From assembly GCA_964536835.1 (NCBI GenBank), contig CAZIAZ010000001.1, forward strand, positions 49,525 to 113,524: a stretch of 64,000 bases of DNA. The letters run 5' to 3'. The DNA comes from an uncultured Planctomycetaceae bacterium. Lineage in GTDB: Bacteria; Planctomycetota; Phycisphaerae; SM23-33. The translations under genes were made by a program, and so were the position numbers. Below are positions 32,217 to 59,051 of the stretch, one piece after another; position 1 is the first letter of the stretch; every line of letters begins with the position of its first letter. Under the pieces are notes generated by a model. The model saw nothing but the letters and a program-made list of their open reading frames with translations. It searched no databases and had not been told where the DNA came from.

Positions 32217-34067
32217 TCAGGCGCTGATATGAACGAGTTCATCGCTGGCATTTATCTGGTCACCCTGCTTGACAAGCACACGGGCAATAGTGCCGCTGAA
32301 CTGGCTTTTGATTTCCGTTTCCATCTTCATGGCTTCCATAACCATGAGCACGTCGCCTTCCGAAACGCTATCGCCTTCCGCAGCTTCCATGCGAACTATA
32401 ACACCCGGCAGAGGCGCTTTCACGACATGGTCAGCCGCCGATGAAAGGCCGGCGACACCACCATTGCCGTTGCCGTTACCACTGCCAACAGCTGCGGCAA
32501 AACCTTCACCAACGGCATAATTGTAACTTCTGCCGTTGACAACCGCCTTGCCGCCGTCAAGTTGCACATTATACTTCTTGCCATTGAGCGTAACGCAGTA
32601 TGCGCCGTTCGCATTCGCACTTTTGACGGATGCGGCTGTGCCGGTGGCGGCTTTGGAAGCAGGCTCGTTCTTGCGAACGCCCAGCGTGCAATTGCCCTTC
32701 AGGAACGCTATACCCTTATCGCCGCAGGCTGCGGCAATAAATATATTCTCATCGCTCAGGTCGGTTATGCCTGCTTCGGTAAGTTTCTTTTTAGCTGCAG
32801 CGACGCCTTTGGCCGGATTGCCGTCATTGAGCAGACGAGGATCCTGCGTAGTCGGTTCGAGCTTGAGCTGGTCGGCGGCTAATTTTACGATTTCTTCGTC
32901 CGGCGCAACCGGCGTCTTGCCGAAATAACCCAAAACCATTTTGCCGTAACCCTCGGCGATTTTCTTCCACGGCCCGAACATGACGTTGTTGAACGCCTGC
33001 TGGAAATAAAACTGACTTACCGGCGTAACGCTCGTGCCGAAACCGCCGCGGCAAACGACTTCGCTCATGGCCTTTATGCAATCGTCGTACTTATCCATAA
33101 TCCCGTTATCGCGCAACATCTGCGTATTGGCGGTAAGTGCGCCGCCGGGCATGGGCGACCACGGAATAAGCGGTTCGACGGCAGAGGCTTCGGGCGGCAT
33201 GAAATAGTCCTTCATGCAATTTTTGAATATCTCTTCAGCCTCGCGCAGCTTATCCACGTCAAAGCCGAGCTCATATTCCGTTCCCCTCAACGCGTGCCAC
33301 ATAGTCAATACGTCCGGCTGACCAGTGCCGCCGCTCATGGGATTCAGGCCCAGGTCTATCTGAGAAGCGCCTGCGTCAAGCGCAGACCTGTAAACCAGCA
33401 CACTCGTGCCGGCGGTTTCGTGCGTATGCATTACTATGGGCATGTCCTGGCCGAGCTTGGCGCGAGCCTGCCGGACAGTCTCGTACACGACCGACGGCGT
33501 CGCCGTGCCGGATGCGTCCTTGAAACAAAGGCTATCGAATTCAACGTCTGCGGCAAGTATCCTGTCCAGGCAGCCTATGTAAAACTCAGGGGTATGTGCA
33601 CCCTCACAGCCTGGCGGAAGAGCCATCATCGTTATGACTATCTCATGCCTGAGGCCATGCTTCTTTATGCACTGGCCGGAAAAAATGAGGTTATTGACGT
33701 CATTCAACGCGTCAAAGTTGCGAATCGTAGTAGTGCCATGCTTTTTGAAAAGTTTTGCGTGCAGGTCGATAATATCGCTGGACTGGCTGTCCAGCCCGAC
33801 GACGTTAATGCCGCGTGCAAGAGTCTGAAGATTTACATCCTGGCCGACCGTACGACGGAATTCGTCCATGCTGTCGAAAGCGTTTTCGCCGCAATAAAAA
33901 AACGGCGACTGGAAACGCGCGCCGCCGCCGAATTCAAAATGCCGGATGCCGGCTTTATGGGCAGCCTCAACGGCAGGCATGAAGTCTTTCGTAAAAACAC
34001 GCGCACCGACGACCGACTGAAAACCGTCGCGGAACGCCGTCACCATTACATTAACTTTCCTGGTCAT
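32217..34067 (-). CDS. oadA: Oxaloacetate decarboxylase alpha subunit (carboxyltransferase + biotinyl domain)
   Basis: HMGL-like TIM-barrel carboxyltransferase N-terminal domain and a C-terminal biotinyl-lysine motif EAMKME. Confidence 0.85.
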   Translation of the reverse strand: MTRKVNVMVTAFRDGFQSVVGARVFTKDFMPAVEAAHKAGIRHFEFGGGARFQSPFFYCGENAFDSMDEFRRTVGQDVNLQTLARGINVVGLDSQSSDIIDLHAKLFKKHGTTTIRNFDALNDVNNLIFSGQCIKKHGLRHEIVITMMALPPGCEGAHTPEFYIGCLDRILAADVEFDSLCFKDASGTATPSVVYETVRQARAKLGQDMPIVMHTHETAGTSVLVYRSALDAGASQIDLGLNPMSGGTGQPDVLTMWHALRGTEYELGFDVDKLREAEEIFKNCMKDYFMPPEASAVEPLIPWSPMPGGALTANTQMLRDNGIMDKYDDCIKAMSEVVCRGGFGTSVTPVSQFYFQQAFNNVMFGPWKKIAEGYGKMVLGYFGKTPVAPDEEIVKLAADQLKLEPTTQDPRLLNDGNPAKGVAAAKKKLTEAGITDLSDENIFIAAACGDKGIAFLKGNCTLGVRKNEPASKAATGTAASVKSANANGAYCVTLNGKKYNVQLDGGKAVVNGRSYNYAVGEGFAAAVGSGNGNGNGGVAGLSSAADHVVKAPLPGVIVRMEAAEGDSVSEGDVLMVMEAMKMETEIKSQFSGTIARVLVKQGDQINASDELVHISA

Positions 34068-35596: not shown

Positions 35597-36973
35597 ATGT
35601 CGACGCCACATCTTAAAATTTTTTTAAAGCATCAGCCCGTTCGCGTGTGGCTATGGATTTTCGCGATATGGGCCGTGCTGGAAGCATTTTGCGTCTGGCT
35701 GCGCATCGGCCTTTCGATAGAAGATGTGCCGTTAAAATTTCCCATTTCAATATGCATCATTTCACCGCATCTGAAAAACTGGCCCATGCTGGCGGTTTTC
35801 TGCACAATAGCGTGGCTGGTCATGAAAAACATCCGTCAAATCAAAACGGCCGGATTGATACTATTCAGCCTGCTGCTGATATGCAGCGGCAACCTCATGC
35901 AGGGTTTTAATGGAGCGTTTCTGTATCCGCTCGGCGTAGAAACAGGAAATACCGACCAGTATTATGCGGAGGCCGCCGGCATAAAAATCTCCTCTGCCGA
36001 ATGGCTGGCTGATTTTAATGAAAATCAGCGTGATTTGATGACACATTCGCGTACGCATCCGCCATTTGCAGTGCTGCTGTTTCGCGAACTGGCGGGAGCG
36101 GCCACAAATGACGGCACATGTTCCAGATGGCCGGTACTCGCAGTATGGCTGATTTGCACAAGCCTCTGTGTGCCGATGCTTTTTGAAATATTCCACAAAA
36201 TCGGAATCGGTATAAACCATGCGAAATATCTGGCTATATTTCTGGCCGTCATGCCGGCATTCAACATATACAGCGTGCTGAGCCTGGACAGCATGATATT
36301 TTTCCTGTCGCTATTCTTCTTCCACGGCATAACGGACATAAATGCCCGCGGTGCAAACCTGGAAAATATCGTCGCAGTGACAATTTCGACGATTGCGATA
36401 AATCTTCTGACCTTCGGCGGGATTTTCTTTTTCGTCCTGTTGTTAACGCTGGCGATAATCCGGCTGATACGACATGAAAAAAAGGGATATGTGGCGGCAT
36501 TGTTAATCGCGGCAGTTGTTTTCGGAGCGATTATAATCTATCTGAATTTTTATTGCGGTTATGACCATTTGAGGGCGTTTTTAACGGCTTGCGGGCTGGA
36601 GTCGCACGGCAGAACAGCGGCACAGCGGGTATGGCTGTATATCGAATCGCGATTCGAAGACGTCTGCGAAATAGGCCTCTGCCTGGGGCTGGTGACACTG
36701 GCGACGATGCTGTCTGCGAAAAATCGCCGGCTTGACATTTTGGATTTTAGAGACCGTCGCAACGAGATTGCGGTTACAGCCATCGGCGTATTGTTTGCGA
36801 TATTTCTCGGCGGCGCTTACAAGACGGGCGAGACGGCTCGTACCTGCATGTTCATTTATCCATACATCTTTCTGCTGATGCGCGGCTTGAGCGTGCGGAC
36901 GTTGCGGGAGATTTTCGTCTGCTGTACAATTCAGACGGCAATGATGCAGTTCATGGGTTCATACGACTGGTAA
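35597..36973 (+). CDS. Polytopic integral membrane protein, possibly a GT-C-type glycosyltransferase or ligase
   Basis: At least 10 predicted TM helices and no recognisable catalytic motif. Adjacent to a GT9 heptosyltransferase. Confidence 0.35.
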   Translation: MSTPHLKIFLKHQPVRVWLWIFAIWAVLEAFCVWLRIGLSIEDVPLKFPISICIISPHLKNWPMLAVFCTIAWLVMKNIRQIKTAGLILFSLLLICSGNLMQGFNGAFLYPLGVETGNTDQYYAEAAGIKISSAEWLADFNENQRDLMTHSRTHPPFAVLLFRELAGAATNDGTCSRWPVLAVWLICTSLCVPMLFEIFHKIGIGINHAKYLAIFLAVMPAFNIYSVLSLDSMIFFLSLFFFHGITDINARGANLENIVAVTISTIAINLLTFGGIFFFVLLLTLAIIRLIRHEKKGYVAALLIAAVVFGAIIIYLNFYCGYDHLRAFLTACGLESHGRTAAQRVWLYIESRFEDVCEIGLCLGLVTLATMLSAKNRRLDILDFRDRRNEIAVTAIGVLFAIFLGGAYKTGETARTCMFIYPYIFLLMRGLSVRTLREIFVCCTIQTAMMQFMGSYDW

Positions 36974-41037: not shown

Positions 41038-43794
41038 TTGAGACGTCTTGATAACGAATGGAGTTCAAAAGTGGCCGACGACGATCAGGAACAATACGAA
41101 GAGAACATGGATGGACAAAACCTGCCCGAAGATGACGGCGGCGATGACGACGATTCGCCGATAGTCGCAGCGATGTTCCCCGGCGAGCGCATAGACGAGC
41201 TTCCCATCGAAGAGGAAATGCGCGAGAGCTACCTCACCTACGCCATGAGTACCATCATGGACCGGGCATTGCCCGACGTTCGCGACGGGCTCAAGCCTTC
41301 TCAACGTCGCGTACTGGTAGCCATGAACGACCTTAACCTCGGCCCCCGCAGCAAGCATCGTAAGTGCGCAAAAATAGCAGGCGACACTTCCGGTAACTAT
41401 CATCCGCATGGCGAAGCAATAGTTTACCCAACTCTGGTACGGCTGGGTCAGCCGTGGAACATGCGATATCCGCTTATCGACCCGCAGGGCAATTTCGGTT
41501 CTATCGACGGCGATCCGCCGGCTGCCATGCGTTATACCGAAGCACGCATGAAAGCCCCAGCCATGGAATTGCTGGCTGACCTGAATCTGCAAACCGTGGA
41601 TTTGCAGCCGAATTACGACGATACCCGTACCGAGCCTACAGTTCTGCCGTCCAAATTTCCTAATCTGCTGGTCAACGGCTCACAGGGCATAGCAGTCGGC
41701 ATGGCCACCAGCATCCCGCCGCACAACGTTACGGAAATATGCGACGCGCTGGTAAAAATGATTGACAACCCGGACATAACCATCGATGAGCTTATGGAGA
41801 TTGTCAAGGGGCCGGATTTCCCGACGGGCGGTCTGATATGTGGCCGTCGCGGCATAGTGGAAGGTTACCACACCGGCAGAGGCCGGCTGTGCGTCCGCGC
41901 TAAAATGCATACCGAACAGACGCGGGGCGGCAAGGAACAGATTGTCATTACGGAAATACCTTACCAGGTTCTCAAAAGCACGATTATCGAGCACATCGCC
42001 GAAACTGTAAAAGCCGGCAAAATCCCCGACATCGCCGACGTACAGGATCACTCCGACCGTACCGGCATGCGAATAGTCGTGGACTTGAAGAAAGGCGCCG
42101 AATCGTCGGTCGTAATCAACCAGCTTTACAAATTTACGCCGCTCCAGAGCACTTTTAGCATAATCAACATCGCCCTTGTCAATCGTGCGCCTCGCACGCT
42201 GAATCTTCGCGACATGCTCTATTATTTCCTAGAGCATCGTAAGGACGTTATACGCCGCAGAACCATATTTCTGTTGCGTCGCGCACGTCAACGGGCACAC
42301 ATATTGGAAGGCCTGATACTCGCAGTAGCCGATATCGACGCCATTATAGAACTTATCAAGAAATCGCCCGACGTGCCGACCGCCAAAGAGCGGCTGATGA
42401 AATACCAGCTCAGCCTTACGGAAGACGCAACGGTAAGAAAACTTCTGCCCGACTCGTTCCTCAACCGCACGGTCGGCAAGCCGCAGAATCTTACCGGCGT
42501 ACAGGCTGACGCAATCCTGGCCATGCAGTTGCAGCGGCTGACCGGCCTTGAGATAGAGAAGCTCGCCAACGATTACTCCAGATTAACCGAGGAAATCGAA
42601 GGCTACGAAGCCATCCTCACTCAGGAATCGCTCCTGCTGGACGTCATCCGCGAAGATATTTTTGAGATAAAGGACAAATACGGCGATGAACGTCGCACGC
42701 AGATTGTCCAGGACGCGAATGAAATCGACATAGAAGACCTCATCGCCGAAGAAGACGTGGTAGTTACGCTATCGCACGAGGGCTACATCAAGCGTATGCC
42801 GGTTTCCACCTATCGCCGTCAGGGCCGCGGCGGCCAGGGCATAATCGGCGGCGAAAGCAAAGAGGGCGATTTCATCGAGCAGCTCTTTATCGCCTCCACG
42901 CACGATTACCTGCTGGTATTCCTGAACACCGGCAAGATGCACTGGCTGAAGGTCTACGACATCCCGTCGATGACCCGCACGAGCAAAGGCCGCGCAATCG
43001 TAAATCTGCTCCAGATGGAACAGAACGAAAAAATCTGCGCCGTCGTAAACGTCCGCGAATTTTCCGACGACAAGTACCTGTTCATCGCCACAAAAAAAGG
43101 ACAGGTCAAAAAGACCGAACTGTCTGCGTATGAAAACGTCCGCAAGGGCGGCCTTATTGCGACGGGCCTCAATGAAGGCGACCAGGTCATCGGCGTGGCG
43201 ATAACCAACGGCAATGACGAGATAGTTCTCGGCACGCGGGACGGCCAGGCGATTCGCTTCAAGGAATCCGACGTCAGACCGATGGGCCGAACGGCAGCCG
43301 GCGTACGCGGCATAAACATACGCGATGAAGATGAAGTAGTCGACATGGTCGTAGTCAATACACACGAGACGCTTCTGACGGTCTGCGAGAACGGCTACGG
43401 CAAGCGGACGGATTTTGACGAATACCGCATACAGGGCCGTGGCGGCAGCGGCATTATCAACATCAAGGCATCCGACCGTAACGGGCCGGTGGTGGCTATC
43501 AAGTCCATCCACGACGCCGACGAACTCATGATGATAACGCAGAACGGCAAAGTCGTACGAATAGCTGTCCGGGAGCTTCGCACCATAGGCCGCGCAACGC
43601 AGGGCGTCCGTGTCATATCGCTCAAACCAGGCGATAAACTCATGGCTGTCGCAAAAGTCGTTCCGGATGACGACGAAAACGCCAATCAGCATGAACTGCC
43701 TCTGACGCCTGCCGACCCGCAGCAGAAACTCATCCCCGATTCGTCTGAGCCGGAAGAAAACGGCTCTCCCGATACCGTGAATGACGAAGAATGA
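41038..43794 (+). CDS. gyrA: DNA gyrase subunit A with acidic N- and C-terminal extensions
   Basis: GyrA N-terminal blocks ([26 protein letters not shown], active-site Tyr region), GyrA-box beta-pinwheel repeats, and an acidic tail. The listed start is TTG at 41038; the first ATG is at 41092. Confidence 0.9.
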
Positions 43795-49639: not shown

Positions 49640-52600
49640 CTATATGGTTTTACGTCGCAGAGTCGATGATATGGCACGGGCGGCTTTGCGGCCTGAGTCG
49701 ATAGCCGTTGCAACATAGGCCGAGCCGGTCGCCAAATCACCTGCTATGAACACTCGCGAATTGGTGGTCGTATATTTGCCAGGAATAATCACACTGCCGC
49801 GGTTGTCCGTCTGTATTTTCAAATCTTTCGCAAGATTTGACGGAATCTGCGGCAGAAAACCTGCTGCGATTATGACGATATCGGCGGCGATTGAAAACTC
49901 ACTGCCGTCGACTTTCTCCATAACCGGGCCTTTCGCCGTCGGCCTATATTCCACCCGCAGAGCCTTAACGCCCGTAACACTGCCGCTTTGCGACGTAAAT
50001 TCAGTCGCCCTGACCTGCCACATGCGTTTGACGGCTGGATTTTCATCCAGCACCGCCGTCATGTCCTGCGGCAGAATTTCAAGCTGATAAACTTCCTTCG
50101 CGCCCTGCCGCATCGCCGTTTCCACGCAATCTTCGCCGGTAAGGCCGCCGCCTATGACAACCACCGTCTTGCCTGAGGCGGAAATAGACGGCTGTGATTT
50201 TTCGACATCCGCGCGATTCTGGCTGCCGAGATAGTCCAGCGCGAAATGAATATTCGCCGCCGCTCTGCCGGGCAGATCAAGTTCGCGCGGCACTATAGCA
50301 CCGCAGGCCAGACAGACAACATCGAAATCATGCAACAGCGATTCGCCTGAAACATCCCTGCCGACTTCCACGCCGTACATGAATTGCACGCCTTCCTGGC
50401 GGAGTTGTTCGATGCGTCGATCTATAAGCTGCTTGGCCAATCTTGCAGCCGGCACGCCGACCCGCAACATGCCGCCTGCCGCATCGTTCTTTTCAAACAC
50501 AGTCACTGTATGGCCTGTGCGGCAGAGCTGCTGCGCAGCAGCCAGGCCGGCCGGCCCGCTACCTATCACCGCAATATTTTTGCCCGTCGCTCCACGCGGT
50601 TTGAACGGCTGGACCCAGCCCTGTTCGAAGGCGCGGTCGATTATCTCCCGCTCCATTTCCCGAACCTGCACGGAATATCCGCCGATACCCTGATGGCAGT
50701 TCTGCTCGCAGAACGCAGGACAGATGCCTGCGGTAAATTCCGGAAAATTGTTCTTTTCCGCAAGTTTAGCGTAGGCGACTTTCCATTTGCCTTCGCGAGC
50801 CAGGCTAATCCATTTCGGCACATCGTTGCCGAGCGGACAGCCCTGCTGGGAACACGATGGCATATAGCAATTCTGGCACAAAGGCCCGGAAAGCAGACGC
50901 ACCTGACGACGATATTCTTCGGCATCGCCGAATGCGAATCGACTGGTCAGATTGATGTATTCTTCTCGGAAGCCGTATTCTTGCGGCATGAAAAATCTTG
51001 TAACGGAACGAATGAACCGCATCCGTCGCAAGATTTTCAGCTGCCAATCATATACGCTGAAACGAATCTGTTTTTCCCATGAGCCGATTTTTATATGACG
51101 CTTCCAGAGATGACGGTAAATAATTCTGTCGCCGTTAGCCGGATTGACGTTGTATTTTTCGGCATCGCGACGATATTTTTCATGGCTGGTGGAAAGTTCG
51201 GCTTTGAATACGGCATCCTTTATGAGCATCGCCTGCGCCAGATTTTTCACTACAGCGCCGGATGCGGCATAACCGTATTCCGGCCGGTCTTTTTCGCAAA
51301 TGTTCCGAACGAGATTTACGTACTGTCTACAATAATCCACGCCGCCCCACCGGACGCAATCATAAGCGCGAATTACGATATCCCGCAAAATGGTTTGGTT
51401 GAATTCGCGAAGTTTTTCCAGCAACGAAACCAGCATGTCGCGAAACTCGGCAACCGCCTGAGCGTTTTTGCCGAATCGACGCTGAAGTTCGCGGGCTTTA
51501 TCGTCCAACGTCTCACGCCATGTCGTGCGTTTGTGCGGGCCCTGGAACAGGTCCGGACTGTCAACGAGTTTTCGGCCCATATTGAATGCGTAAAGATTCT
51601 TTTTGAAATCGACGCGTATCGTATCCTTTATTGCCCAGGCCATCGAATGCATGGAAACCGGAATCAGTCCCTGCTGGAAAGCGTAACCGAGCATCATCAC
51701 GTTGGCATACAGCCTGCTTCCTAGATATTTTTCGCAGATTCGTGAAATATTGCGAGCGAGAAATTCATCGCCGCGCGTATTAGCCTGTATCAGCCGCACG
51801 AGTTCATCCGTGTCGAAATCCTCGCGTCCCATAATGCCGGCGATGGTTTGCACTTTGTCCATATTGATGACAGCCGCCGTTTTATCTTTGCTTATTACAC
51901 GGACGCGGTTTTTCGGGTCGAGGATTCTGGCGGCTTCAAGGACGTCCACGCCGATGAGCAGGTCGGCTTTGCCGTGCGGTATTACAGCGGTGACCGGCTG
52001 TTGCGTGAGGTTGAACGTCACCTGAGAAAACACTCCGCCGTTGCGGATAGCCATGCCCTTGCGATCCATGAATATGACGCGATAGCCTTCATTATGGCCG
52101 GCTCGCACAAGTATGCTGGTCGCCAGGCCTATGCCCATGCCGCCCACACCCGTCAGGCAGCATCGCCAGACATCTTCCGTCGGACGCTTGCGAGGTTCGG
52201 GAATATTGTCCAGGTCGAGTTCGGGCACTCTGCTTCTGGGCTGAGCCTTGCGCTTGACTACAACTCGCTCGAACGCATCGCACTCGCCGATACGTTCACA
52301 TGCGCCGTCGGCGACGCAGTTGCTCAGGTCGGTGTCCATCTTTACGCCATAATCCGTCTGTACGTGTTTCAGACCCGGACAGCCGGTAAGCTTCGTACAA
52401 GCCAGACAGAAACGACAGATTTCCTGGTTGATGTTCATATGCTCCCTGGCCGGCAGGAAGCCTTTGCTCTTTATGACATCGCGCTCGAAACGGCGTAACC
52501 GGCGGGTTCTGGTTATGCCGCACTCCTTGTCCGCGATAATTATCTTGACGCCCGGCATAAGAAACGTACGTTCTAGAAGTTCGCGATATTCACCCCGTCT

Positions 52601-54361
52601 GGCCGGGTTCATACGAATGACCGGTATCTCCAGCGACCCGACGAGGCCGCGCACGACATTCTCGATATCCTGAGCCGGCGTACGATTGCCCAGCACATCG
52701 TAATCGACGCCTGGAGTCGGCTGATGGCCGGTCATGGCGGTCGTAGAATTATCCAGTATTATGTAGGTTATGTTCTGATTGAACTTGATAGCCTGGCTGA
52801 TGGACGTCATGCCGATATGGAAAAACGTGCTGTCGCCCATAAAAGTGACTTTGTTGTTCGTGGTAAACGGGTCAATGCCGCTGCCCGTTCCACCGCCAAG
52901 TCCCATGCCCGACAAATCATGCATAAGTTCGTTATTCGGCGGAAACATGAGCATGGTATAGCAGCCGATATCGCCGTGAAAAATCAGATCCACCGGCTCA
53001 CGGTGATGCTTCTGTCGCATATAATCCGGGTCGGCAAAACAGCGCTTGATATCCGTGCAGAGATTGGCTGAATCGCGGTGCGGACAACCAGGGCAGAACG
53101 TCGGCAGACGAGCCGGCAGTTTTGTCGTGACCTTGACGCTTTCAGTCTGTTCGATTGTGCGGATTTCTGTCTGAATAGTGCTCGCTGCCATGCTGTCCGC
53201 CGTCGTACAATAACGACAGACTAGCGGGCCGAGCGTCTGGATGATTATCGACGGGTCTAGGCCGCGTATTTCCGGCAAGCCTTTGAGGCCGTCGGGAAAT
53301 TTTTTGCCGAATATCATCACGTCGTCAAACGCGGCGTCTTTCTGACGCAACGCCGTCATGATTTCAGCAATCTGCTCTTCCATGAAGCCGCGCCGTTCCT
53401 CAACAACAATTATCCGCTCCACCTGCCGCGCCAGGTCTTCTATCATTTCCGGGTCGACCGGATACGACAGGCCGAGTTTGAGTATAGGCGCCTGGCCGAG
53501 CTGGCCCATTTCGTACAGCGCCTGGGTAAGATAATCATGTCCCAAGCCGGCACAGACGAAGCCCAGCGGCTTGCGGACGGAAGTTTCATTACGATATTCA
53601 AAGCGGTTCAGCCCCAATTCACGGGCGGCTTTCATCGCGCGGCTGAATCGGCCGGTCAGCGACGCCTCCTGCCACCACGTCCGCGGCGGCAGAAGTACGC
53701 GTTTGTCAAAATCTATGTCTTTCGTAACCATCTCGATACGGTCATACATGTTGACCGACGGGAAATGGTTGGGCCGACACTCCACAGTGCCGCCGCCGTC
53801 GGCAAGATTCGTGGTGATGATGTAACCCACTACCAGTTCACTGATAGCCGACAGTTTGAACGAAAGATTTACAAAATCCTTGATTTCCTGCGGATTGGAA
53901 GGCTCGATGGTGGGAATGAACAGGTGCTTGGAGATATAGCGGCTGTCGCTGGCGACCTGGGTGGAATCGCTCCACGGGTCGTCGCCGTAAATAACGATAG
54001 CTCCGCCTTCCGGATTAGCCCCAGCCAGGTTGGCAAGGGCAAGGGCATCGGCGGCTACGTGCACGCCGACGCTTTTCATCGCTATCATGGAACGCAACGG
54101 CAGCGATTGTGTGCCGTTGAGCATGGCTGCCGCCAGCGCTTCGTTGTTATTGATTACGGCACGTATGCCCTTTTCACGCAAAACATCCTTCAACGCAGTC
54201 AGCGAGTCGAAATAGCCTGCTATCGGCGAACCTGGATAACCGCCGAGCAGATGTACGCCGCCTTCCGTCTCAAGGGCGCCTTTCACGAGCAATTCACTGC
54301 CAGTGAACACTTCCGTGCCCTCGCACTTCATGAATCTTCCTTCTGTCTTCATAGTCGTCAT
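49640..54361 (-). CDS. Fusion protein: indolepyruvate/2-oxoacid:ferredoxin oxidoreductase (IorA+IorB modules) joined to a GltD-like NAD(P)H-binding flavoprotein domain
   Basis: IorA blocks: YPGSPIAG, CPGCPH, GDIGCY, GDSTFFH, and two ferredoxin-like Cys clusters. IorB/gamma block: GVGGMGIG. C-terminal ~450 aa are GltD-like: Cys-rich N-region, FAD site AVIGSGPAGLAAA…VTVFEK, NAD(P) site VVVIGGGLTGEDC. One continuous 1573-codon frame. Confidence 0.8.
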   Translation of the reverse strand: MTTMKTEGRFMKCEGTEVFTGSELLVKGALETEGGVHLLGGYPGSPIAGYFDSLTALKDVLREKGIRAVINNNEALAAAMLNGTQSLPLRSMIAMKSVGVHVAADALALANLAGANPEGGAIVIYGDDPWSDSTQVASDSRYISKHLFIPTIEPSNPQEIKDFVNLSFKLSAISELVVGYIITTNLADGGGTVECRPNHFPSVNMYDRIEMVTKDIDFDKRVLLPPRTWWQEASLTGRFSRAMKAARELGLNRFEYRNETSVRKPLGFVCAGLGHDYLTQALYEMGQLGQAPILKLGLSYPVDPEMIEDLARQVERIIVVEERRGFMEEQIAEIMTALRQKDAAFDDVMIFGKKFPDGLKGLPEIRGLDPSIIIQTLGPLVCRYCTTADSMAASTIQTEIRTIEQTESVKVTTKLPARLPTFCPGCPHRDSANLCTDIKRCFADPDYMRQKHHREPVDLIFHGDIGCYTMLMFPPNNELMHDLSGMGLGGGTGSGIDPFTTNNKVTFMGDSTFFHIGMTSISQAIKFNQNITYIILDNSTTAMTGHQPTPGVDYDVLGNRTPAQDIENVVRGLVGSLEIPVIRMNPARRGEYRELLERTFLMPGVKIIIADKECGITRTRRLRRFERDVIKSKGFLPAREHMNINQEICRFCLACTKLTGCPGLKHVQTDYGVKMDTDLSNCVADGACERIGECDAFERVVVKRKAQPRSRVPELDLDNIPEPRKRPTEDVWRCCLTGVGGMGIGLATSILVRAGHNEGYRVIFMDRKGMAIRNGGVFSQVTFNLTQQPVTAVIPHGKADLLIGVDVLEAARILDPKNRVRVISKDKTAAVINMDKVQTIAGIMGREDFDTDELVRLIQANTRGDEFLARNISRICEKYLGSRLYANVMMLGYAFQQGLIPVSMHSMAWAIKDTIRVDFKKNLYAFNMGRKLVDSPDLFQGPHKRTTWRETLDDKARELQRRFGKNAQAVAEFRDMLVSLLEKLREFNQTILRDIVIRAYDCVRWGGVDYCRQYVNLVRNICEKDRPEYGYAASGAVVKNLAQAMLIKDAVFKAELSTSHEKYRRDAEKYNVNPANGDRIIYRHLWKRHIKIGSWEKQIRFSVYDWQLKILRRMRFIRSVTRFFMPQEYGFREEYINLTSRFAFGDAEEYRRQVRLLSGPLCQNCYMPSCSQQGCPLGNDVPKWISLAREGKWKVAYAKLAEKNNFPEFTAGICPAFCEQNCHQGIGGYSVQVREMEREIIDRAFEQGWVQPFKPRGATGKNIAVIGSGPAGLAAAQQLCRTGHTVTVFEKNDAAGGMLRVGVPAARLAKQLIDRRIEQLRQEGVQFMYGVEVGRDVSGESLLHDFDVVCLACGAIVPRELDLPGRAAANIHFALDYLGSQNRADVEKSQPSISASGKTVVVIGGGLTGEDCVETAMRQGAKEVYQLEILPQDMTAVLDENPAVKRMWQVRATEFTSQSGSVTGVKALRVEYRPTAKGPVMEKVDGSEFSIAADIVIIAAGFLPQIPSNLAKDLKIQTDNRGSVIIPGKYTTTNSRVFIAGDLATGSAYVATAIDSGRKAARAISSTLRRKTI

Positions 54362-55077: not shown

Positions 55078-55215
55078 GCCCATTAAATACAGGCACTTAA
55101 AATCGAAACTTAAAAATTCATGAAAAAAAGTGCTTGACAAAACACCGTCTGCCATTCAATGATTCTGTCCTTTGGCAAGTTGAAATCTGACCCTTTTTGC
55201 GAGTTGGGAGGTTCG

Positions 55216-57753
55216 ATGGGCAAGGCAGTAAAGGACAAGAAGGTTGACGGCAAGTGTCTGGTGATAGTCGAATCGCCAGCCAAGGCAAAAACCATAAACA
55301 AATACCTCGGAAGCGATTTCGTCGTAAAAGCCTCCATGGGCCACGTCCGCGACCTGCCCAATAAAAACCCCAAAGGCGTAAAGGCTCCCGTTCCAGGCGT
55401 TGACCTGGAACATGATTTTGAGCCGACTTACGAAGTTCTGCCCCGCGGCAAAAAGACCCTCGCCGAACTCAAGCCGCTTGCTAAAACCGCACCGCTAGTC
55501 TATCTGGCAACCGACCTTGACCGCGAAGGAGAAGCCATCGCCTGGCATCTCGCGCAGTCGCTCAAACTTAACCCCGAAAATACCCGTCGCGTGGTTTTTA
55601 ATGAAATTACCCGCTCCGCTATAAAAGAGGCTTTCGCCAACCCGCGCGACGTCGATATGAACATGGTAGATGCTCAGCAGGCAAGACGAATTCTCGACCG
55701 CATAGTTGGTTACCAGGTTTCGCCGCTGTTGTGGAAAAAAGTCGCCGGTGGCTTGTCGGCTGGACGCGTACAGTCGGTGGCTGTGCGGTTGATAGTCGAA
55801 CGGGAGCGTGAAATTGACGCTTTCATGCCGGAAGAATTCTGGCGAATCGGCGGAATTTTCACAAAAAACGCATCCGATGCCCCGTCGATTGCCGCCAAAT
55901 GGCAAAAATTTTTAGCCGACACCGATGAAAAAGGCGATGGCCCGACAAAAAAGTCGCAACTTGAATTTCTGGCTCAGAATCACGCTTTTACTGCGGAGCT
56001 TGTAAGTTTTGCCGGCCAGAAGTTTAATGCGAATAATGTCGAGCAGGCTACCCGCGTCGCCAGGGCACTGGGCGTATCCGTCAAGGATACGCAAACAAAG
56101 GAAGACCCCAAGGCTAAAGGCCCGGCCAGAAATAAAATAACCGTCGTCGCATCACTGGCGGCGGATAAAAATTTCATCGTTACGGACGTTAGCCAGAAAC
56201 TGACGTTTTCGCACCCCGGAGCGCCGTTCATAACGTCCACGCTTCAGCAGGCAGCCAGCACGCAGATTTACTTCGCCGCCCGTCGTACCATGAGCGTAGC
56301 GCAGCAGCTTTACGAAGGCATATCTATTCCCGGCGAGGGCGAAGTCGGCCTGATTACTTACATGCGTACCGACAGCAGAAACATATCGGCGGAGGCAATC
56401 GCCGCGGTGCGCAATCTTATAGAAGATAAATTCGGCCCCAAATATCTGCCGGACAAACCGAACTTTTACGCATCGGGCAAGATGGCCCAGGAAGCCCACG
56501 AGGCAATCCGTCCAACCGACGCATCCCGCACACCGGAGAGCATAAAGTCCAGCCTGACCGACGACCAGTTCAAACTTTACCGCCTTATATGGCAGCGATT
56601 CGTAGCCAGCCAGATGACATCAGCCCAGTGGAACGTCACTGAAGCCGCCATCACCACCGACACATCGGACGGTATTGCACAATTCAAAGCCGCCGGCCGT
56701 TCGCTCGCATTCGACGGCTATTTGCGCGCCACCGGCATCAGCAGCAACGGCGAACAGATTTTGCCCGAACTGGCGGCACATGACCGCGTAGCGCCGGTAG
56801 ACATTAGTCCGACGCAACACTTCACGCAAGGCCCGTCGAGGTATACCGAGGCGTCGCTGGTCAAGGCTCTGGAAGCCGACAATATCGGCCGGCCCAGTAC
56901 TTATGCCGCAATTATCCAGACCATACAGGACAGGAATTATGTCGTGCAGGAGAACCGCGCCTTCCGGCCGACTGACCTGGGCTTCGTTGTCACGGATAAG
57001 CTCGTCGCGCATTTCCCCGAAATTTTTGAGGTGAAATTCACCGCGCATATGGAAGACCAGCTAGACGCCGTTGAAGCGGCACGCGAAGACTGGATTGCCG
57101 TACTCAAGGAATTTTACGAGCCGTTCAGCCGGCAACTCGTCCAAGCCACCGAAGATATGGTGCACGCCAAGGCTGAAACCCAGCCGAGCGAATATAAATG
57201 CCCTCAATGCGGCAAACCGATGGTATACCGCTTCGGCAAGAACGGCCGATTCCTCAGTTGCAGCGCGTATCCGGACTGCAAAGCCGCCCAACCTATAGAT
57301 CGCGACGGCAAACCCGTCGGCACGACGCATACCGATATCGCGTGCCCGAAATGCGGTAAGCCGCTGATTTTGCGCAAAGGCCGTTTCGGGCCGTTCCTGA
57401 GCTGCGAAGATTATCCCAAATGCGACGGCATTGTTAATCTTGACCGCAAGGGCGGCGTAAAACTGCCCTCCGCTCCGCCGCTTCAAATAGAAGTGACATG
57501 TCCCAAGTGCAATTCGCCGGTAATGAACCTGCGGCGTTCCAAAAAAGGGCCGTGGATAAGTTGTGCGGCGTATCCCAAATGCAGAGGCCGCGTAGCCTGG
57601 AGCAAACTGGATACGGCTGACCAGAAAAAATATGAAGCAGCCCTGGAAAAACATGAAGCGCAGCACCCCAAAATTACCATTCGCAAAACTAATGGCGACG
57701 AAGCCGAAGAAGGCTACACGCCGCAAATCATCCAGGAAGAAATCGACAGCTAG
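55216..57753 (+). CDS. topA: DNA topoisomerase I with three C-terminal zinc ribbons
   Basis: TOPRIM domain (CLVIVESPAKAKTI), active-site Tyr region, and CPQC…, CPKC…, CPKC… ribbons. GGAGG lies 6 bp upstream of the ATG at 55216. Confidence 0.9.
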   Translation: MGKAVKDKKVDGKCLVIVESPAKAKTINKYLGSDFVVKASMGHVRDLPNKNPKGVKAPVPGVDLEHDFEPTYEVLPRGKKTLAELKPLAKTAPLVYLATDLDREGEAIAWHLAQSLKLNPENTRRVVFNEITRSAIKEAFANPRDVDMNMVDAQQARRILDRIVGYQVSPLLWKKVAGGLSAGRVQSVAVRLIVEREREIDAFMPEEFWRIGGIFTKNASDAPSIAAKWQKFLADTDEKGDGPTKKSQLEFLAQNHAFTAELVSFAGQKFNANNVEQATRVARALGVSVKDTQTKEDPKAKGPARNKITVVASLAADKNFIVTDVSQKLTFSHPGAPFITSTLQQAASTQIYFAARRTMSVAQQLYEGISIPGEGEVGLITYMRTDSRNISAEAIAAVRNLIEDKFGPKYLPDKPNFYASGKMAQEAHEAIRPTDASRTPESIKSSLTDDQFKLYRLIWQRFVASQMTSAQWNVTEAAITTDTSDGIAQFKAAGRSLAFDGYLRATGISSNGEQILPELAAHDRVAPVDISPTQHFTQGPSRYTEASLVKALEADNIGRPSTYAAIIQTIQDRNYVVQENRAFRPTDLGFVVTDKLVAHFPEIFEVKFTAHMEDQLDAVEAAREDWIAVLKEFYEPFSRQLVQATEDMVHAKAETQPSEYKCPQCGKPMVYRFGKNGRFLSCSAYPDCKAAQPIDRDGKPVGTTHTDIACPKCGKPLILRKGRFGPFLSCEDYPKCDGIVNLDRKGGVKLPSAPPLQIEVTCPKCNSPVMNLRRSKKGPWISCAAYPKCRGRVAWSKLDTADQKKYEAALEKHEAQHPKITIRKTNGDEAEEGYTPQIIQEEIDS

Positions 57754-57995: not shown

Positions 57996-59051
57996 ATGAA
58001 ATATAAGCCCGACTGGGCAGAAGCCCGTGAACGGTTAACCGCCCTTTGGAATCACGAAACGCTTGACCGACCCTGCATTGCAGTAATAGCCCCAAACGGT
58101 AAAAAAACGCCGGCACCTGAATTACCAGCAAATCTGGAAGACATATGGCTAAACATTGAATGGGTAAAAAAGGCTTATTTGGCAAAGCTCGAAAACACAT
58201 GGTGGGGCGGCGAGGCTATTCCGTCATACCTGACAATGGGCGGATGGGTACTCTGTCTGGGCGGCACGCCAAAATTTGCACAAGACACAATATGGTTTGA
58301 GCACGTTAATATTGATTTTAATGGCCCTTCTCCATTTTATTACAAAGATGGCGACCCGTGGGTTGAAAAATACATGGCCTTATATAACGTCATTGTCGAA
58401 ATGGCCGGCAAAGATGATTTTCTGGTAGGGAAACCCTCTAATCTTCCTGCCAATGACCTTTTCTCGATGTTTATGGGAACAGAAGAATTTTTGTTCAGCC
58501 TCATTGACCATCCGGAATGGATGCGTAATGCAATCATCAAGGGCGCTCAGGAACAATTGAAATTATGTCGCAAAATTGAAAAAAACATTTGCGAAAAACA
58601 TGACTTCTGGTACGGCCACGGCGGATGGATGTGCTTTTGGGCTCCTCAGCCGTTCACATCCACGCAATCAGACGTGTCGTGCATGCTCTCGCCGGAAATG
58701 TTTGAAGAATTCATTATGCCGGAAATGGATATACTTGGGCAGGCCTACGGTGCGTTGTGGTATCATCTGGACGGCGGTAATGCCCGCCAGCATTTGCCGC
58801 GATTGTTGTCGCTGCCTTATTTGAAAGTTCTTCAATACGTGCCGGCACCATGCGAACCGGCTAACGGCCCTGAACATCTTGATTTTTACCGTACTATACA
58901 GGCAGCCGGCAAAATAGTTCATATCGGAGTGCCAAAAGAAAATGTCCTCCCATTGGTAAAATCACTGGATACATCTTTGTTAATGCTGGATGTGACGTGC
59001 AACAGTGTGGAAGAAGGACAGGCATTGCTGAAGGCAACCAAAAAAGCCTGA
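57996..59051 (+). CDS. Uroporphyrinogen decarboxylase (URO-D)-like family protein, function unknown
   Basis: Blocks DHPEWMRNAI, SPEMFEEFIMPEMDIL and HLDGGNARQHL resemble the URO-D / MtaA methyltransferase fold. Lies in an AT-rich island. Confidence 0.45.
   Translation: MKYKPDWAEARERLTALWNHETLDRPCIAVIAPNGKKTPAPELPANLEDIWLNIEWVKKAYLAKLENTWWGGEAIPSYLTMGGWVLCLGGTPKFAQDTIWFEHVNIDFNGPSPFYYKDGDPWVEKYMALYNVIVEMAGKDDFLVGKPSNLPANDLFSMFMGTEEFLFSLIDHPEWMRNAIIKGAQEQLKLCRKIEKNICEKHDFWYGHGGWMCFWAPQPFTSTQSDVSCMLSPEMFEEFIMPEMDILGQAYGALWYHLDGGNARQHLPRLLSLPYLKVLQYVPAPCEPANGPEHLDFYRTIQAAGKIVHIGVPKENVLPLVKSLDTSLLMLDVTCNSVEEGQALLKATKKA

What the first reader, a model, noticed from the sequence alone, without database searches (positions are those of the whole stretch)
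49640..54361. 1573-aa single-chain fusion of a 2-oxoacid:ferredoxin oxidoreductase (IorA+IorB) with a GltD/NfnB-like NAD(P)H flavoprotein
The sequence shows one uninterrupted reading frame. The first ~1100 residues carry the full indolepyruvate:ferredoxin oxidoreductase architecture: a pyrimidine-binding domain, CPGCPH, the TPP motifs GDIGCY and GDSTFFH, two ferredoxin-type Cys clusters, and the IorB GxGGxG module. The last ~450 residues (approximately nt 49640-51000) are a complete glutamate-synthase-small-subunit-like unit: a Cys-rich FeS region, an FAD Rossmann site GSGPAGLAAA, and an NAD(P) Rossmann site GGGLTGEDC. From established knowledge, IOR/OFOR enzymes normally hand electrons to a separate ferredoxin, and GltD/NfnB/SudA-type domains move electrons between FeS centres and NAD(P)H. 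Inference: this polypeptide could oxidise an aromatic or branched 2-oxoacid and reduce NAD(P)+ directly, or run in reverse as a reductive carboxylase. That would be a bacterial analogue of the eukaryotic pyruvate:NADP+ oxidoreductase fusions, but built from different parts. The gene is monocistronic and convergent with its neighbour, so no partner ferredoxin is encoded nearby.
Basis: partly seen in the sequence, partly recalled or inferred. Interest (0 to 1): 0.78.

Follow-up and report, generated by a model that had tools for sequence, protein, structure and literature searches.

The report
Single-chain 2-oxoacid oxidoreductase fused to NADH flavoprotein
One very long gene in this Phycisphaerae (Planctomycetota) genome joins a complete thiamine-dependent 2-oxoacid oxidoreductase to a glutamate-synthase-small-subunit-type iron-sulfur flavoprotein; the enzyme probably passes electrons from a 2-oxoacid directly to NAD+ without a separate ferredoxin, a chemistry known from multi-subunit enzymes but not described in this fused form.

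Summary
Window 49640..54361 (-) is one uninterrupted 1573-codon ORF. Residues ~19-1157 form a single-chain indolepyruvate-type 2-oxoacid:ferredoxin oxidoreductase (OFOR) ending in DUF6537. Residues ~1159-1573 form a complete GltD-like module with 2x[4Fe-4S], FAD and a NAD(P)H site.

It is not an assembly artefact. An independent assembly carries the identical gene. More than 120 full-length relatives (55-62% identity, all named ones Phycisphaerae/Planctomycetota MAGs) share the architecture, and every cofactor ligand is 119-120/120 conserved.

The fusion is one monophyletic, lineage-restricted family. An exhaustive search of 1.84 billion representatives found a single full-length fused representative. 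The closest unfused relatives (Poriferisphaera, Verrucomicrobiia; 47-50% identity) stop exactly at the junction.

AlphaFold models are confident (pLDDT 89-91, pTM 0.87-0.89). The C-terminal module matches GltD (TM 0.81) and the N-terminal module matches PFOR-type enzymes.

Best explanation (inferred): a self-contained, CoA-acylating 2-oxoacid:NAD+ oxidoreductase. An invariant Glu at the dinucleotide site suggests NADH rather than NADPH. The substrate is unknown.

The principle has precedents: Azoarcus 2-oxoglutarate:NADP+ oxidoreductase with a GltD/NfnB-like subunit, and eukaryotic PNO. This is therefore a new variant of a known kind, uncharacterised and generically annotated. Interest is moderate.

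The parts
49640..54361 (-). Whole gene: 1573-codon ORF including stop. Probable true start is M4 at 54350-54352; the public record calls M11 at 54329-54331.
53162..54307 (-). Residues ~19-400: OFOR pyrimidine-binding (Pyr) domain with invariant E74, plus domain II (transketolase-C-like).
   Evidence: NCBIfam IOR_alpha 19-697. E74 is 120/120 conserved. AF2 pLDDT is mostly >90. Foldseek matches PFOR.
52502..53110 (-). Residues ~418-620: TPP-binding (PP) domain. It holds the G509-D510...N538 Mg-TPP motif and the four Cys of the proximal [4Fe-4S] (C423, C426, C467, C614).
   Evidence: Pfam TPP_enzyme_C 464-600. All listed residues are 120/120 conserved.
52262..52429 (-). Residues ~645-700: ferredoxin-like insert with 7 invariant Cys (649, 652, 655, 661 / 682, 688, 694). 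Presumed to be the two medial Fe-S clusters of the electron wire.
   Evidence: The same 4+3 pattern occurs in the unfused Verrucomicrobia homologue.
51563..52162 (-). Residues ~734-933: OFOR gamma / IorB-type CoA-binding domain with invariant G738-x-G740-x-x-G743-x-G745.
   Evidence: Pfam POR 740-930. NCBIfam IOR_beta models 734-933. Conservation.
50891..51376 (-). Residues ~996-1157: helical DUF6537 domain, the normal C-terminal domain of single-chain IOR-family proteins. Unfused relatives align up to residue 1157.
   Evidence: Pfam DUF6537. BLASTP against the unfused L045 protein ends at 1157. Helices in the AF2 model.
50612..50887 (-). Residues ~1159-1250: GltD-type N-terminal Fe-S domain. 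It has C1162/1165/1170/1175 plus C1214/1218/1222 plus E1237, i.e. two [4Fe-4S]. It follows DUF6537 without a flexible linker.
   Evidence: Pfam Fer4_20. Alignments to GltD structures. 119-120/120 conservation. pLDDT >90 across the junction.
49643..50584 (-). Residues ~1260-1573: FAD (G1267-x-G-x-x-G1272, E1290) and dinucleotide (G1404-x-G-x-x-G1409) Rossmann domains of the GltD-like flavoprotein.
   Evidence: Pfam Pyr_redox_2. GOGAT_sm_gam. Foldseek 6s6s_E TM 0.81, rmsd 2.7 A.
50069..50164 (-). Residues 1400-1431: pyridine-nucleotide site VVVIGGGLTGEDC...EVYQLEILP. E1428 sits at the end of the second beta-strand, giving a predicted NADH preference.

Best explanation
The gene encodes a self-contained, CoA-acylating 2-oxoacid:NAD+ oxidoreductase.

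Proposed mechanism:
1. The N-terminal ~1157 residues are a complete single-chain OFOR of the indolepyruvate-oxidoreductase family.
2. TPP, bound between the Pyr and PP domains, decarboxylates a 2-oxoacid.
3. The acyl group goes to CoA, bound by the gamma-type domain.
4. The two electrons leave one at a time through the proximal [4Fe-4S] and then the 7-Cys ferredoxin-like insert.
5. They do not reduce a free ferredoxin. [quoted passage not shown]
6. They are collected on FAD and delivered as a hydride to NAD+. NADH is preferred over NADPH because of the invariant Glu1428.

The roughly 180 mV drop makes the reaction effectively irreversible in the oxidative direction. It also frees the cell from needing a ferredoxin-reoxidising system for this step.

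Shown: the architecture, cofactor ligands, folds, conservation, the single origin of the fusion, and the absence of an adjacent ferredoxin.

Inferred: electron flow between the modules, the direction, the NADH preference and the nature of the 2-oxoacid. The substrate is unknown; aryl- or branched-chain pyruvates are family-based guesses.
For: - The ORF and domain order are established.
- All catalytic and cofactor residues are invariant in 120 family members: E74; C423/426/467/614; G509-D510...N538; 7 Fd-like Cys; the G738/740/743/745 CoA loop; 7 GltD Cys plus E1237; the FAD GxGxxG plus E1290; the NAD GxGxxG plus E1428.
- The C-terminal module is closest to true GltD (7mfm 8e-85; 2vdc/6s6s 3e-75), ahead of the NfnB-type modules (9bov, 9n5u, 4ylf, 5vj7, 8oh5, 5jca: 1.6e-52 to 2.5e-44). 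Its predicted fold matches GltD (TM 0.81).
- The N-terminal model matches PFOR, OorDABC and oxalate oxidoreductase.
- Two overlapping AF2 models are confident: residues 400-1573 give pLDDT 91.2, pTM 0.89; residues 1-1160 give pLDDT 88.8, pTM 0.87. pLDDT is >90 through the junction, so the fusion is rigid rather than beads on a string.
- The fusion is conserved and monophyletic. It is present identically in an independent assembly.
- No ferredoxin motif occurs in the window, and 35 of 36 related loci have none within 3 kb.
- GltD-like modules are defined as devices that connect NAD(P)H to a second domain through low-potential [4Fe-4S] clusters (review PMC8097209).
- A GltD/NfnB-homologous subunit is part of the Azoarcus evansii 2-oxoglutarate:NADP+ oxidoreductase (PMC10134865).
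- NADH preference: the site reads Q-L-E-I-L-P, as in the eukaryote-type fused glutamate synthase (P0197: NFELLP; that class uses NADH according to PMC8097209). NADPH-type Azospirillum GltD and NfnB-like proteins have Y-R-R there, and NADPH-type B. subtilis GltD has G-K-H-P-K.
Against: - There is no biochemical data for any member.
Distances between the Fd-like clusters and the GltD clusters could not be measured, so intramolecular (or intradimer) electron transfer is not demonstrated.
- The neighbourhood gives no pathway context. Neighbours are housekeeping genes: UDG-family, topA, a VWA protein here; NAD kinase or endonuclease III elsewhere.
- Scores are below the curated cut-offs of both parent families, so function transfer is by analogy.
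- The QxExxP motif is shared by many bacterial GltDs whose coenzyme preference I could not verify. The NADH call is moderate.
- The exposed Fd-like domain might still serve an external ferredoxin or flavodoxin.
Confidence: 0.6

Rival explanations
1. Dual-outlet enzyme. The OFOR still reduces a free ferredoxin or flavodoxin through its surface-exposed Fd-like insert. The fused GltD-like module acts as a built-in ferredoxin:NAD(P)+ valve, so the protein equilibrates 2-oxoacid, ferredoxin and NAD(H) pools rather than being strictly NAD-linked.
For: Unfused relatives with the same 7-Cys insert must use an external acceptor, so the docking surface existed before the fusion. GltD-like modules exchange electrons with Fe-S partners (PMC8097209).
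Against: No ferredoxin gene is linked in the window or in 35 of 36 loci. The rigid, linker-less, invariant junction suggests a dedicated internal path.
Confidence: 0.17
2. Reverse, biosynthetic direction. This would be an NAD(P)H-driven 2-oxoacid synthase that reductively carboxylates an acyl-CoA (for example arylacetyl- or branched acyl-CoA) to make amino-acid precursors. IOR/VOR are proposed to do this with ferredoxin in methanogens and Bacteroides.
For: OFORs are reversible. Biosynthetic roles are discussed for IOR/VOR (PMC13285125). The gene sits among housekeeping or biosynthetic genes rather than in a catabolic cluster.
Against: From established thermodynamics, the NAD(P)H couple (about -320 mV) is ~180 mV too positive for the acyl-CoA+CO2/2-oxoacid couple (about -500 mV). 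No second, high-potential electron outlet that could drive bifurcation is present in the polypeptide or conserved nearby.
Confidence: 0.08
3. Flavin-based electron bifurcation or confurcation. The GltD/NfnB-type FAD splits NAD(P)H electrons between the low-potential Fe-S chain leading to the OFOR site and an unidentified high-potential partner that docks where GltB or NfnA would bind.
For: The same module carries the bifurcating FAD in NfnB and in the NfnABC/StnABC complexes, which are among the structural matches (PMC8097209).
Against: Sequence is clearly closer to non-bifurcating GltD than to NfnB. No NfnA/PyrK-like or other redox partner is conserved next to the gene in 36 loci. The dinucleotide site is not the NADPH-type of NfnB.
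Confidence: 0.06
4. Artefact: a sequencing or assembly error fused two adjacent genes (an IOR-family gene and a gltD-like gene).
For: None found. It was considered because MAG assemblies can contain frameshift errors (for example L065, a related locus whose gene is broken into several frames).
Against: An identical protein occurs on an independently assembled contig. There are more than 120 distinct full-length homologues of 1546-1632 aa. 36 genomes carry a full-length fused ORF. There is no stop or linker at the junction, and junction residues are conserved (L1157, C1162). Unfused relatives have no gltD gene downstream.
Confidence: 0.01

Closest known systems
Single-chain indolepyruvate:ferredoxin oxidoreductase family proteins (NCBIfam PRK13030/PRK13029; about 1150-1290 aa, ending in DUF6537). 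Examples: the unfused proteins of Poriferisphaera sp. WC338 and Verrucomicrobiia MAGs, and the characterised steroid 2-oxoacid enzyme EdcC.
   Same: Same domain order (Pyr, II, PP, 7-Cys Fd-like insert, gamma, DUF6537). 47-50% identity over residues 2-1157. Same Cys ligands and TPP motif.
   Different: These proteins end about 35-100 residues after the point where the GltD-like module starts here. They must use an external acceptor. The window protein scores 428 bits against a curated cut-off of 816.
Glutamate synthase small (beta) subunit GltD (TIGR01317; PDB 7mfm, 6s6s, 2vdc)
   Same: 33-36% identity to solved GltDs in the fold comparison and 40-46% to the closest free-standing GltD-like proteins. 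Same 7 Cys plus Glu for two [4Fe-4S], and the same FAD and dinucleotide Rossmann sites. Predicted fold TM 0.81, rmsd 2.7 A.
   Different: The first ~40 residues of GltD are missing, replaced by DUF6537. It lacks the PWPxWP-containing insertion after the NAD site. It is just below the curated cut-off (408.8 vs 447.7). No GltB large subunit is nearby. The electron partner is an OFOR, so electrons would flow towards NAD+ rather than from NADPH.
2-Oxoglutarate:NADP+ oxidoreductase of Azoarcus evansii (KGOR; Ebenau-Jehle et al. 2003). From my own knowledge, also phenylglyoxylate:NAD+ oxidoreductase PadEFGHI of the same organism.
   Same: An OFOR core is combined with a GltD/NfnB-homologous Fe-S flavoprotein that lets the enzyme reduce NAD(P)+ directly. 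KGOR-alpha is placed among GltD/NfnB homologues in PMC10134865.
   Different: Those are multi-subunit enzymes built on KOR or four-subunit-type OFOR cores in Betaproteobacteria. Here everything is one polypeptide built on an IOR-family core, in Phycisphaerae. No sequence comparison with KGOR or Pad subunits was possible here; the primary paper is not held.
Pyruvate:NADP+ oxidoreductase (PNO) of Euglena gracilis and Cryptosporidium parvum
   Same: A single polypeptide in which an OFOR is fused at its C-terminus to an NAD(P)-linked flavoprotein, making the enzyme ferredoxin-independent. PNO is named as the alternative form of PFO in PMC6856725. The details of its domain composition are from my own knowledge.
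   Different: PNO uses a PFOR-type core and, from my own knowledge, an FMN/FAD cytochrome-P450-reductase-type module. This protein uses an IOR-family core and a 2x[4Fe-4S]/FAD GltD-type module. The two are independent inventions.
Other proteins carrying a GltD/NfnB-like module fused or bound to a catalytic unit: dihydropyrimidine dehydrogenase, NfnAB, NfnABC/StnABC, AegA/YgfT
   Same: The same module serves as the NAD(P)H port, wired through Fe-S clusters to another active site. In DPD the wire runs through an 8Fe ferredoxin-like domain of the other subunit (PMC8097209; structural matches).
   Different: None of them has a TPP/OFOR partner. The 2021 review of this module lists GltS, DPD, Nfn and AegA only.

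Membership tests
2-oxoacid:ferredoxin oxidoreductase (OFOR) superfamily | Mg-TPP binding motif GD(G/S)-x24-27-N in the PP domain | tested here: met
   G509-D510-S...N538. G509, D510 and N538 are 120/120 conserved. Pfam TPP_enzyme_C.
2-oxoacid:ferredoxin oxidoreductase (OFOR) superfamily | Four Cys ligating the [4Fe-4S] cluster proximal to TPP (C-x2-C ... C ... C) | tested here: met
   C423, C426, C467 and C614 are all 120/120 conserved. The assignment of these four to the proximal cluster is by analogy with solved OFORs.
2-oxoacid:ferredoxin oxidoreductase (OFOR) superfamily | OFOR fold (Pyr, domain II, PP and gamma domains) | tested here: met
   The AF2 model of residues 1-1160 (pLDDT 88.8) matches PFOR 6cio/1b0p (E ~1e-14), OorDABC 8ys5_A (TM 0.66) and oxalate oxidoreductase 5c4i.
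2-oxoacid:ferredoxin oxidoreductase (OFOR) superfamily | CoA-binding gamma / domain III (Pfam POR) | tested here: met
   PF01558 at 740-930, 52.5 bits against a cut-off of 27.4. The G738/740/743/745 loop is invariant.
Indolepyruvate:ferredoxin oxidoreductase IorA/IorB (TIGR03336/TIGR03334) and single-chain IOR family (PRK13030) | Score above the curated family cut-off | tested here: not met
   IOR_alpha 321 vs 651. IOR_beta 62.7 vs 205.8. PRK13030 428.5 vs 816. It is a divergent relative, not an equivalog.
Indolepyruvate:ferredoxin oxidoreductase IorA/IorB | Ferredoxin-type domain with eight Cys (two CxxCxxCxxxCP motifs; from my knowledge of archaeal IorA) | tested here: not met
   Only seven invariant Cys are present, with spacing C-x2-C-x2-C-x5-CP / C-x5-C-x5-C. 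The regex for the canonical motif finds nothing in the window.
Indolepyruvate:ferredoxin oxidoreductase IorA/IorB | Activity on arylpyruvates with ferredoxin as acceptor | not testable with these tools
   This needs enzyme assays. EdcC shows that the family also handles other 2-oxoacids.
GltD-like Fe-S flavoproteins (glutamate synthase small subunit type) | [quoted passage not shown] | tested here: met
   C1162/1165/1170/1175, C1214/1218/1222 and E1237 are 119-120/120 conserved. E1237 aligns with the Glu of the 'VEKY' stretch of Azospirillum GltD. Its role as a ligand is by analogy (PMC8097209).
GltD-like Fe-S flavoproteins (glutamate synthase small subunit type) | Adrenodoxin-reductase-like FAD and NAD(P)H Rossmann domains; overall fold | tested here: met
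   GxGxxG at 1267-1272 and at 1404-1409. Foldseek 6s6s_E TM 0.81, rmsd 2.7 A.
Bona fide glutamate synthase beta subunit (TIGR01317) | Score above the curated cut-off and association with a GltB large subunit | tested here: not met
   408.8 bits against a cut-off of 447.7. No gltB lies among the 33 window ORFs scanned against Pfam (all the long ORFs from 17120 to 63212, plus 4012-5787 and 8776-10635) or among the conserved neighbours. ORFs in 1-17 kb other than those two were not scanned.
NfnB (bifurcating NADH-dependent ferredoxin:NADP+ oxidoreductase large subunit) | Paired with an NfnA ([2Fe-2S]/FAD) subunit or domain; NADPH-type site | tested here: not met
   No NfnA-like neighbour is conserved. 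The site has Q-L-E-I-L-P instead of Y-R-R. Similarity to NfnB is weaker than to GltD.
Pyruvate:NADP+ oxidoreductase (PNO) | PFOR-type core fused to an FMN/FAD cytochrome-P450-reductase-type domain (from my own knowledge) | tested here: not met
   There are no flavodoxin or FNR-type domains. The core is IOR-type with DUF6537 and the reductase is GltD-type. PNO is a functional analogue only.
NAD(P)+-reducing OFOR complexes with a GltD/NfnB-like subunit (KGOR of Azoarcus evansii) | OFOR core plus a GltD/NfnB-homologous flavoprotein in one enzyme | tested here: met
   Both are present in one chain. The precedent is documented in PMC10134865.
NAD(P)+-reducing OFOR complexes with a GltD/NfnB-like subunit (KGOR of Azoarcus evansii) | Orthology to the KGOR subunits; demonstrated NAD(P)+ reduction | not tested
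   KGOR sequences and the primary paper were not available. Activity needs an assay.

The most novel reading that the evidence does not exclude
The GltD/NfnB-type FAD is a bifurcating centre. With an as yet unseen high-potential partner, the enzyme would use NADH to push one electron uphill into the OFOR site. That would allow ferredoxin-independent, NADH-driven reductive carboxylation of acyl-CoA to 2-oxoacids. In reverse, it would confurcate 2-oxoacid electrons with a second donor.
Probability: 0.06. Interest if true: 0.85.

Novelty: new variant of a known kind. Interest (0 to 1): 0.5.

Why it matters
If the inferred chemistry holds, a clade of Phycisphaerae oxidises a 2-oxoacid to an acyl-CoA and makes NADH with one polypeptide. 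No lipoamide complex and no ferredoxin pool would be needed. Phycisphaerae are abundant and mostly uncultured polysaccharide and protein degraders of sediments, peat and bioreactors.

- This would change how redox balances are drawn in metabolic reconstructions of these MAGs. The gene is currently labelled 'FAD-dependent oxidoreductase', 'glutamate synthase small subunit' or 'indolepyruvate ferredoxin oxidoreductase'.
- It would add a bacterial, independently evolved counterpart to eukaryotic PNO, and a fused counterpart to the Azoarcus NAD(P)+-reducing OFORs.
- It offers a compact model for studying how an OFOR cluster chain is wired to a GltD-type module.
- It would also give the first functional handle on the large, uncharacterised DUF6537 / single-chain IOR family.

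Tried and rejected
- Assembly or frameshift artefact: rejected.
- Split versions with an adjacent gltD in relatives: looked for, not found. Verrucomicrobia L045 has a molybdopterin-oxidoreductase-domain gene and a HEAT-repeat gene downstream. Poriferisphaera has a glyoxalase-family gene. The small 69-aa ORF upstream of the Poriferisphaera gene is not a ferredoxin.
- Conserved operon partners: all-against-all BLAST of neighbours in 53 loci gave only NAD kinase (upstream, ~10 of 36 fused loci) and endonuclease III (downstream, ~10 of 36). That is synteny, not a pathway.
- Other fused lineages: the exhaustive HMMER search returned one full-length fused representative plus fragments. Other long proteins carrying the GltD module (P0229, P0234, P0245, P0248, P0197) matched only through that module.
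- Measuring inter-cluster distances in the AF2 models: not possible, because coordinates are not exposed to the script machine.
- The afdb50 fold library was unavailable.
- Literature: no paper mentions DUF6537 or Phycisphaerae together with indolepyruvate. Searches for OFOR-GltD/NfnB fusions found nothing specific. The primary KGOR paper is not held. The PadEFGHI subunit composition could not be verified from held papers and is given from memory only.
- Promoter and terminator scans were uninformative.


Full report
**1. The observation**

Window 49640..54361 on the minus strand is a single ATG-initiated ORF of 1573 codons with no interruption.

Pfam places the following domains, in this order:
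- TPP_enzyme_C at residues 464-600.
- The OFOR gamma-type POR domain at 740-930.
- DUF6537 at 996-1119.
- The GltD/DPD-type Fer4_20 domain at 1162-1248.
- Pyr_redox_2 at 1262-1557.

NCBIfam matches:
- The single-chain 'indolepyruvate ferredoxin oxidoreductase family protein' model PRK13030 over residues 38-1061 (E 5e-128).
- IOR_alpha over 19-697 (E 1e-95).
- The glutamate synthase small-subunit model over 1159-1568 (E 3e-122).
- All three scores are below the curated family cut-offs.

There are two small corrections:
- The ferredoxin-like insert of the OFOR part has seven, not eight, conserved cysteines, with unusual spacing.
- The family consensus start (MKVDPRF) aligns with M4 of this ORF. 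The public record calls M11.

The gene is convergent with a VWA-domain gene and divergent from a UDG-family gene followed by topA. It therefore looks monocistronic.

**2. Not an artefact, and how widely it occurs**

- A word-indexed search of 5.8 billion proteins returned more than 120 distinct full-length proteins (1546-1632 aa). They are 55-62% identical (one at 85%, one at 100%) and all have the same domain set. Every protein that carries an organism name comes from Phycisphaerae/Planctomycetota MAGs.
- The 100% match is also found on an independently assembled contig (ERZ795026 NODE_8096) with the same UDG and topA neighbours.
- A scan of one genome per species found 66 related loci. Of these, 36 hold a full-length fused ORF (>=1450 aa), all in Phycisphaerae/Planctomycetota MAGs.
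- The closest relatives that lack the C-terminal module are ~1190-1270-aa proteins of Verrucomicrobiia MAGs, at about 50% identity. Their similarity stops at residue 1157.
- An exhaustive HMMER search of 1.84 billion 50%-identity representatives used residues 400-1573 as query. It found only one full-length fused representative (P0091) plus fragments. After that came unfused IOR-family proteins (31-50% identity, matching only the OFOR part) and free-standing ~450-500-aa GltD-like proteins (40-46%).
- One unfused relative (47% identity) belongs to the cultured Phycisphaerae isolate Poriferisphaera sp. WC338, where it is annotated 'DUF6537 domain-containing protein' and is a stand-alone gene.
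- In a neighbour-joining tree of the OFOR part, 25 sampled fused sequences form a clade that excludes all 32 unfused representatives.

The fusion therefore arose once, inside Phycisphaerae, and has been kept.

**3. Is every part functional?**

Across 120 family members the following are conserved in 119-120 sequences:
- E74 of the Pyr domain.
- C423/C426/C467/C614, the pattern of the TPP-proximal [4Fe-4S].
- G509-D510...N538, the Mg-TPP motif.
- The seven Cys of the ferredoxin-like insert.
- The G738-x-G-x-x-G-x-G745 loop of the CoA-binding domain.
- The seven Cys plus E1237 of the GltD Fe-S domain. E1237 aligns with the Glu that ligates one cluster in GltS, which is a Gln in DPD.
- The FAD GxGxxG.
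- The dinucleotide GxGxxG with E1428.

E1290, which follows the FAD GxGxxG, is Glu in 112 and Asp in 8 of the 120 sequences.

The junction has no low-complexity linker and is itself conserved (L1157, then C1162).

AlphaFold2 models built with the family alignment are confident:
- Residues 400-1573: pLDDT 91.2, pTM 0.89, with pLDDT >90 across the junction.
- Residues 1-1160: pLDDT 88.8, pTM 0.87.

Fold comparisons:
- The C-terminal module superposes on Azospirillum GltD (TM 0.81, rmsd 2.7 A), NfnB-type subunits and the DPD N-terminal region.
- The N-terminal module hits PFORs over ~980 aligned columns. The global TM is low because the domain order differs. It also hits OorDABC and oxalate oxidoreductase subunits.
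- By sequence, the module is clearly nearer to true GltD (E 8e-85 to 3e-75) than to the NfnB-type modules (E 1.6e-52 to 2.5e-44).

**4. How it most likely works**

[quoted passage not shown] OFORs release two low-potential electrons one at a time through a chain of clusters.

Putting the two in one rigid polypeptide gives a simple reading: TPP -> proximal cluster -> ferredoxin-like insert -> GltD clusters -> FAD -> NAD(P)+. Three observations fit this:
- No ferredoxin gene occurs in the 64-kb window, and only 1 of 36 fused loci has one within 3 kb.
- No NfnA-like or other redox partner is conserved nearby.
- OFORs and DPD are dimers. In DPD the wire crosses between subunits, so the path here may also be inter-subunit.

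This step is inferred, not shown.

Direction: from established redox potentials, the 2-oxoacid/acyl-CoA+CO2 couple is about -500 mV and NAD(P)+/NAD(P)H is -320 mV. Oxidation is therefore strongly favoured, by roughly -35 kJ/mol.

Coenzyme: the strand after the second GxGxxG ends in Q-L-E1428-I-L-P.
- The Glu is present in 119 of 120 sequences.
- NADPH-dependent Azospirillum GltD and NfnB-type proteins have Y-R-R at this position.
- NADPH-dependent B. subtilis GltD has G-K-H-P-K.
- The eukaryote-type fused glutamate synthase has N-F-E-L-L-P. That class uses NADH.

An acidic residue at this position is the classical marker of NAD(H) sites. I therefore predict NADH, with moderate confidence.

Substrate: this is unknown.
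- Scores are far below the curated IOR cut-offs.
- The family includes EdcC, which acts on a steroid-derived 2-oxoacid.
- OFOR specificity does not follow family labels closely (PMC13285125).
- The neighbourhood is housekeeping: UDG, topA and VWA here; NAD kinase or endonuclease III in about 10 of 36 other loci.

**5. Comparison with what is known**

The parts are ordinary. The combination is not described in the literature I could search:
- No paper mentions DUF6537.
- No paper mentions Phycisphaerae together with indolepyruvate.
- A 2021 review of GltD-like modules lists only GltS, DPD, Nfn and AegA.
- Targeted searches found no OFOR-GltD fusion.

The principle, however, is known:
- A published phylogeny places the alpha subunit of Azoarcus evansii 2-oxoglutarate:NADP+ oxidoreductase among GltD/NfnB homologues (PMC10134865).
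- From my own knowledge, the five-subunit phenylglyoxylate:NAD+ oxidoreductase of the same organism is an FAD-containing OFOR that reduces NAD+.
- Eukaryotic PNO (PMC6856725) is, from my own knowledge, a PFOR fused to a P450-reductase-type flavoprotein.

The present protein is an independently evolved, single-chain version built from an IOR-family core and a GltD-type port.

**6. Verdict**

The direct NAD-coupling is plausible and is the best explanation (confidence ~0.6). The reverse-carboxylase option is unlikely. The claim of novelty needs tempering, and the coenzyme is probably NADH.
- Novelty: a new variant of a known kind. It is an uncharacterised, lineage-restricted fusion family that public databases annotate generically.
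- Interest is moderate (0.5). It is a clean, testable enzyme candidate that matters for reconstructing redox metabolism in Phycisphaerae and for understanding the DUF6537/IOR family. It does not overturn a concept.
- The most novel reading not excluded is flavin-based bifurcation driving NADH-dependent reductive carboxylation. Its probability is low (~0.06).

Noticed in passing
window 8776..10635 (-): A 619-aa ORF matches topoisomerase VI subunit B (Topo-VIb_trans plus HATPase_c). This is an archaeal/eukaryotic-type topoisomerase subunit in a planctomycete genome. The window also encodes gyrase A (41038..43794) and topoisomerase I (55159..57753).
   Followed up: no
window 30712..32193 (-) and 32217..34067 (-): These are adjacent genes for the beta subunit (OAD_beta) and the carboxyltransferase/biotinyl alpha subunit (PYC_OADA plus Biotin_lipoyl) of a Na+-translocating oxaloacetate-decarboxylase-type pump. 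This hints at an anaerobic, sodium-based energy metabolism.
   Followed up: no
window 52262..52429 (-), residues 645-700 of the fusion protein: The ferredoxin-like insert of this OFOR family has seven invariant Cys (C-x2-C-x2-C-x5-CP ... C-x5-C-x5-C) instead of two canonical CxxCxxCxxxCP motifs. The unfused Verrucomicrobia homologue has the same pattern. It may bind [4Fe-4S]+[3Fe-4S] or use a non-Cys ligand.
   Followed up: partly
L014 7072..7917 (+) and equivalents in about 10 of 36 fused loci: An NAD kinase gene sits immediately upstream of the fusion gene on the same strand. An endonuclease III gene sits downstream in about 10 of 36 loci. This is probably synteny, but the NAD kinase link to a pyridine-nucleotide enzyme is noted.
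   Followed up: partly
window 35597..36973 (+) and 57996..59051 (+): ORFs of 458 aa and 351 aa have no Pfam match at E<=1e-4 and E<=1e-3 respectively.
   Followed up: no
L065 8001..11500: The unfused homologue in this Verrucomicrobiae MAG (long-read style contig) is broken into several overlapping frames. This is probably frameshift sequencing error. It is a reminder that single loci of this gene can be mis-assembled.
   Followed up: no
window 54329..54361 (-): There are three in-frame ATG codons (M1, M4, M11). The family consensus supports M4, while the public annotation uses M11.
   Followed up: partly
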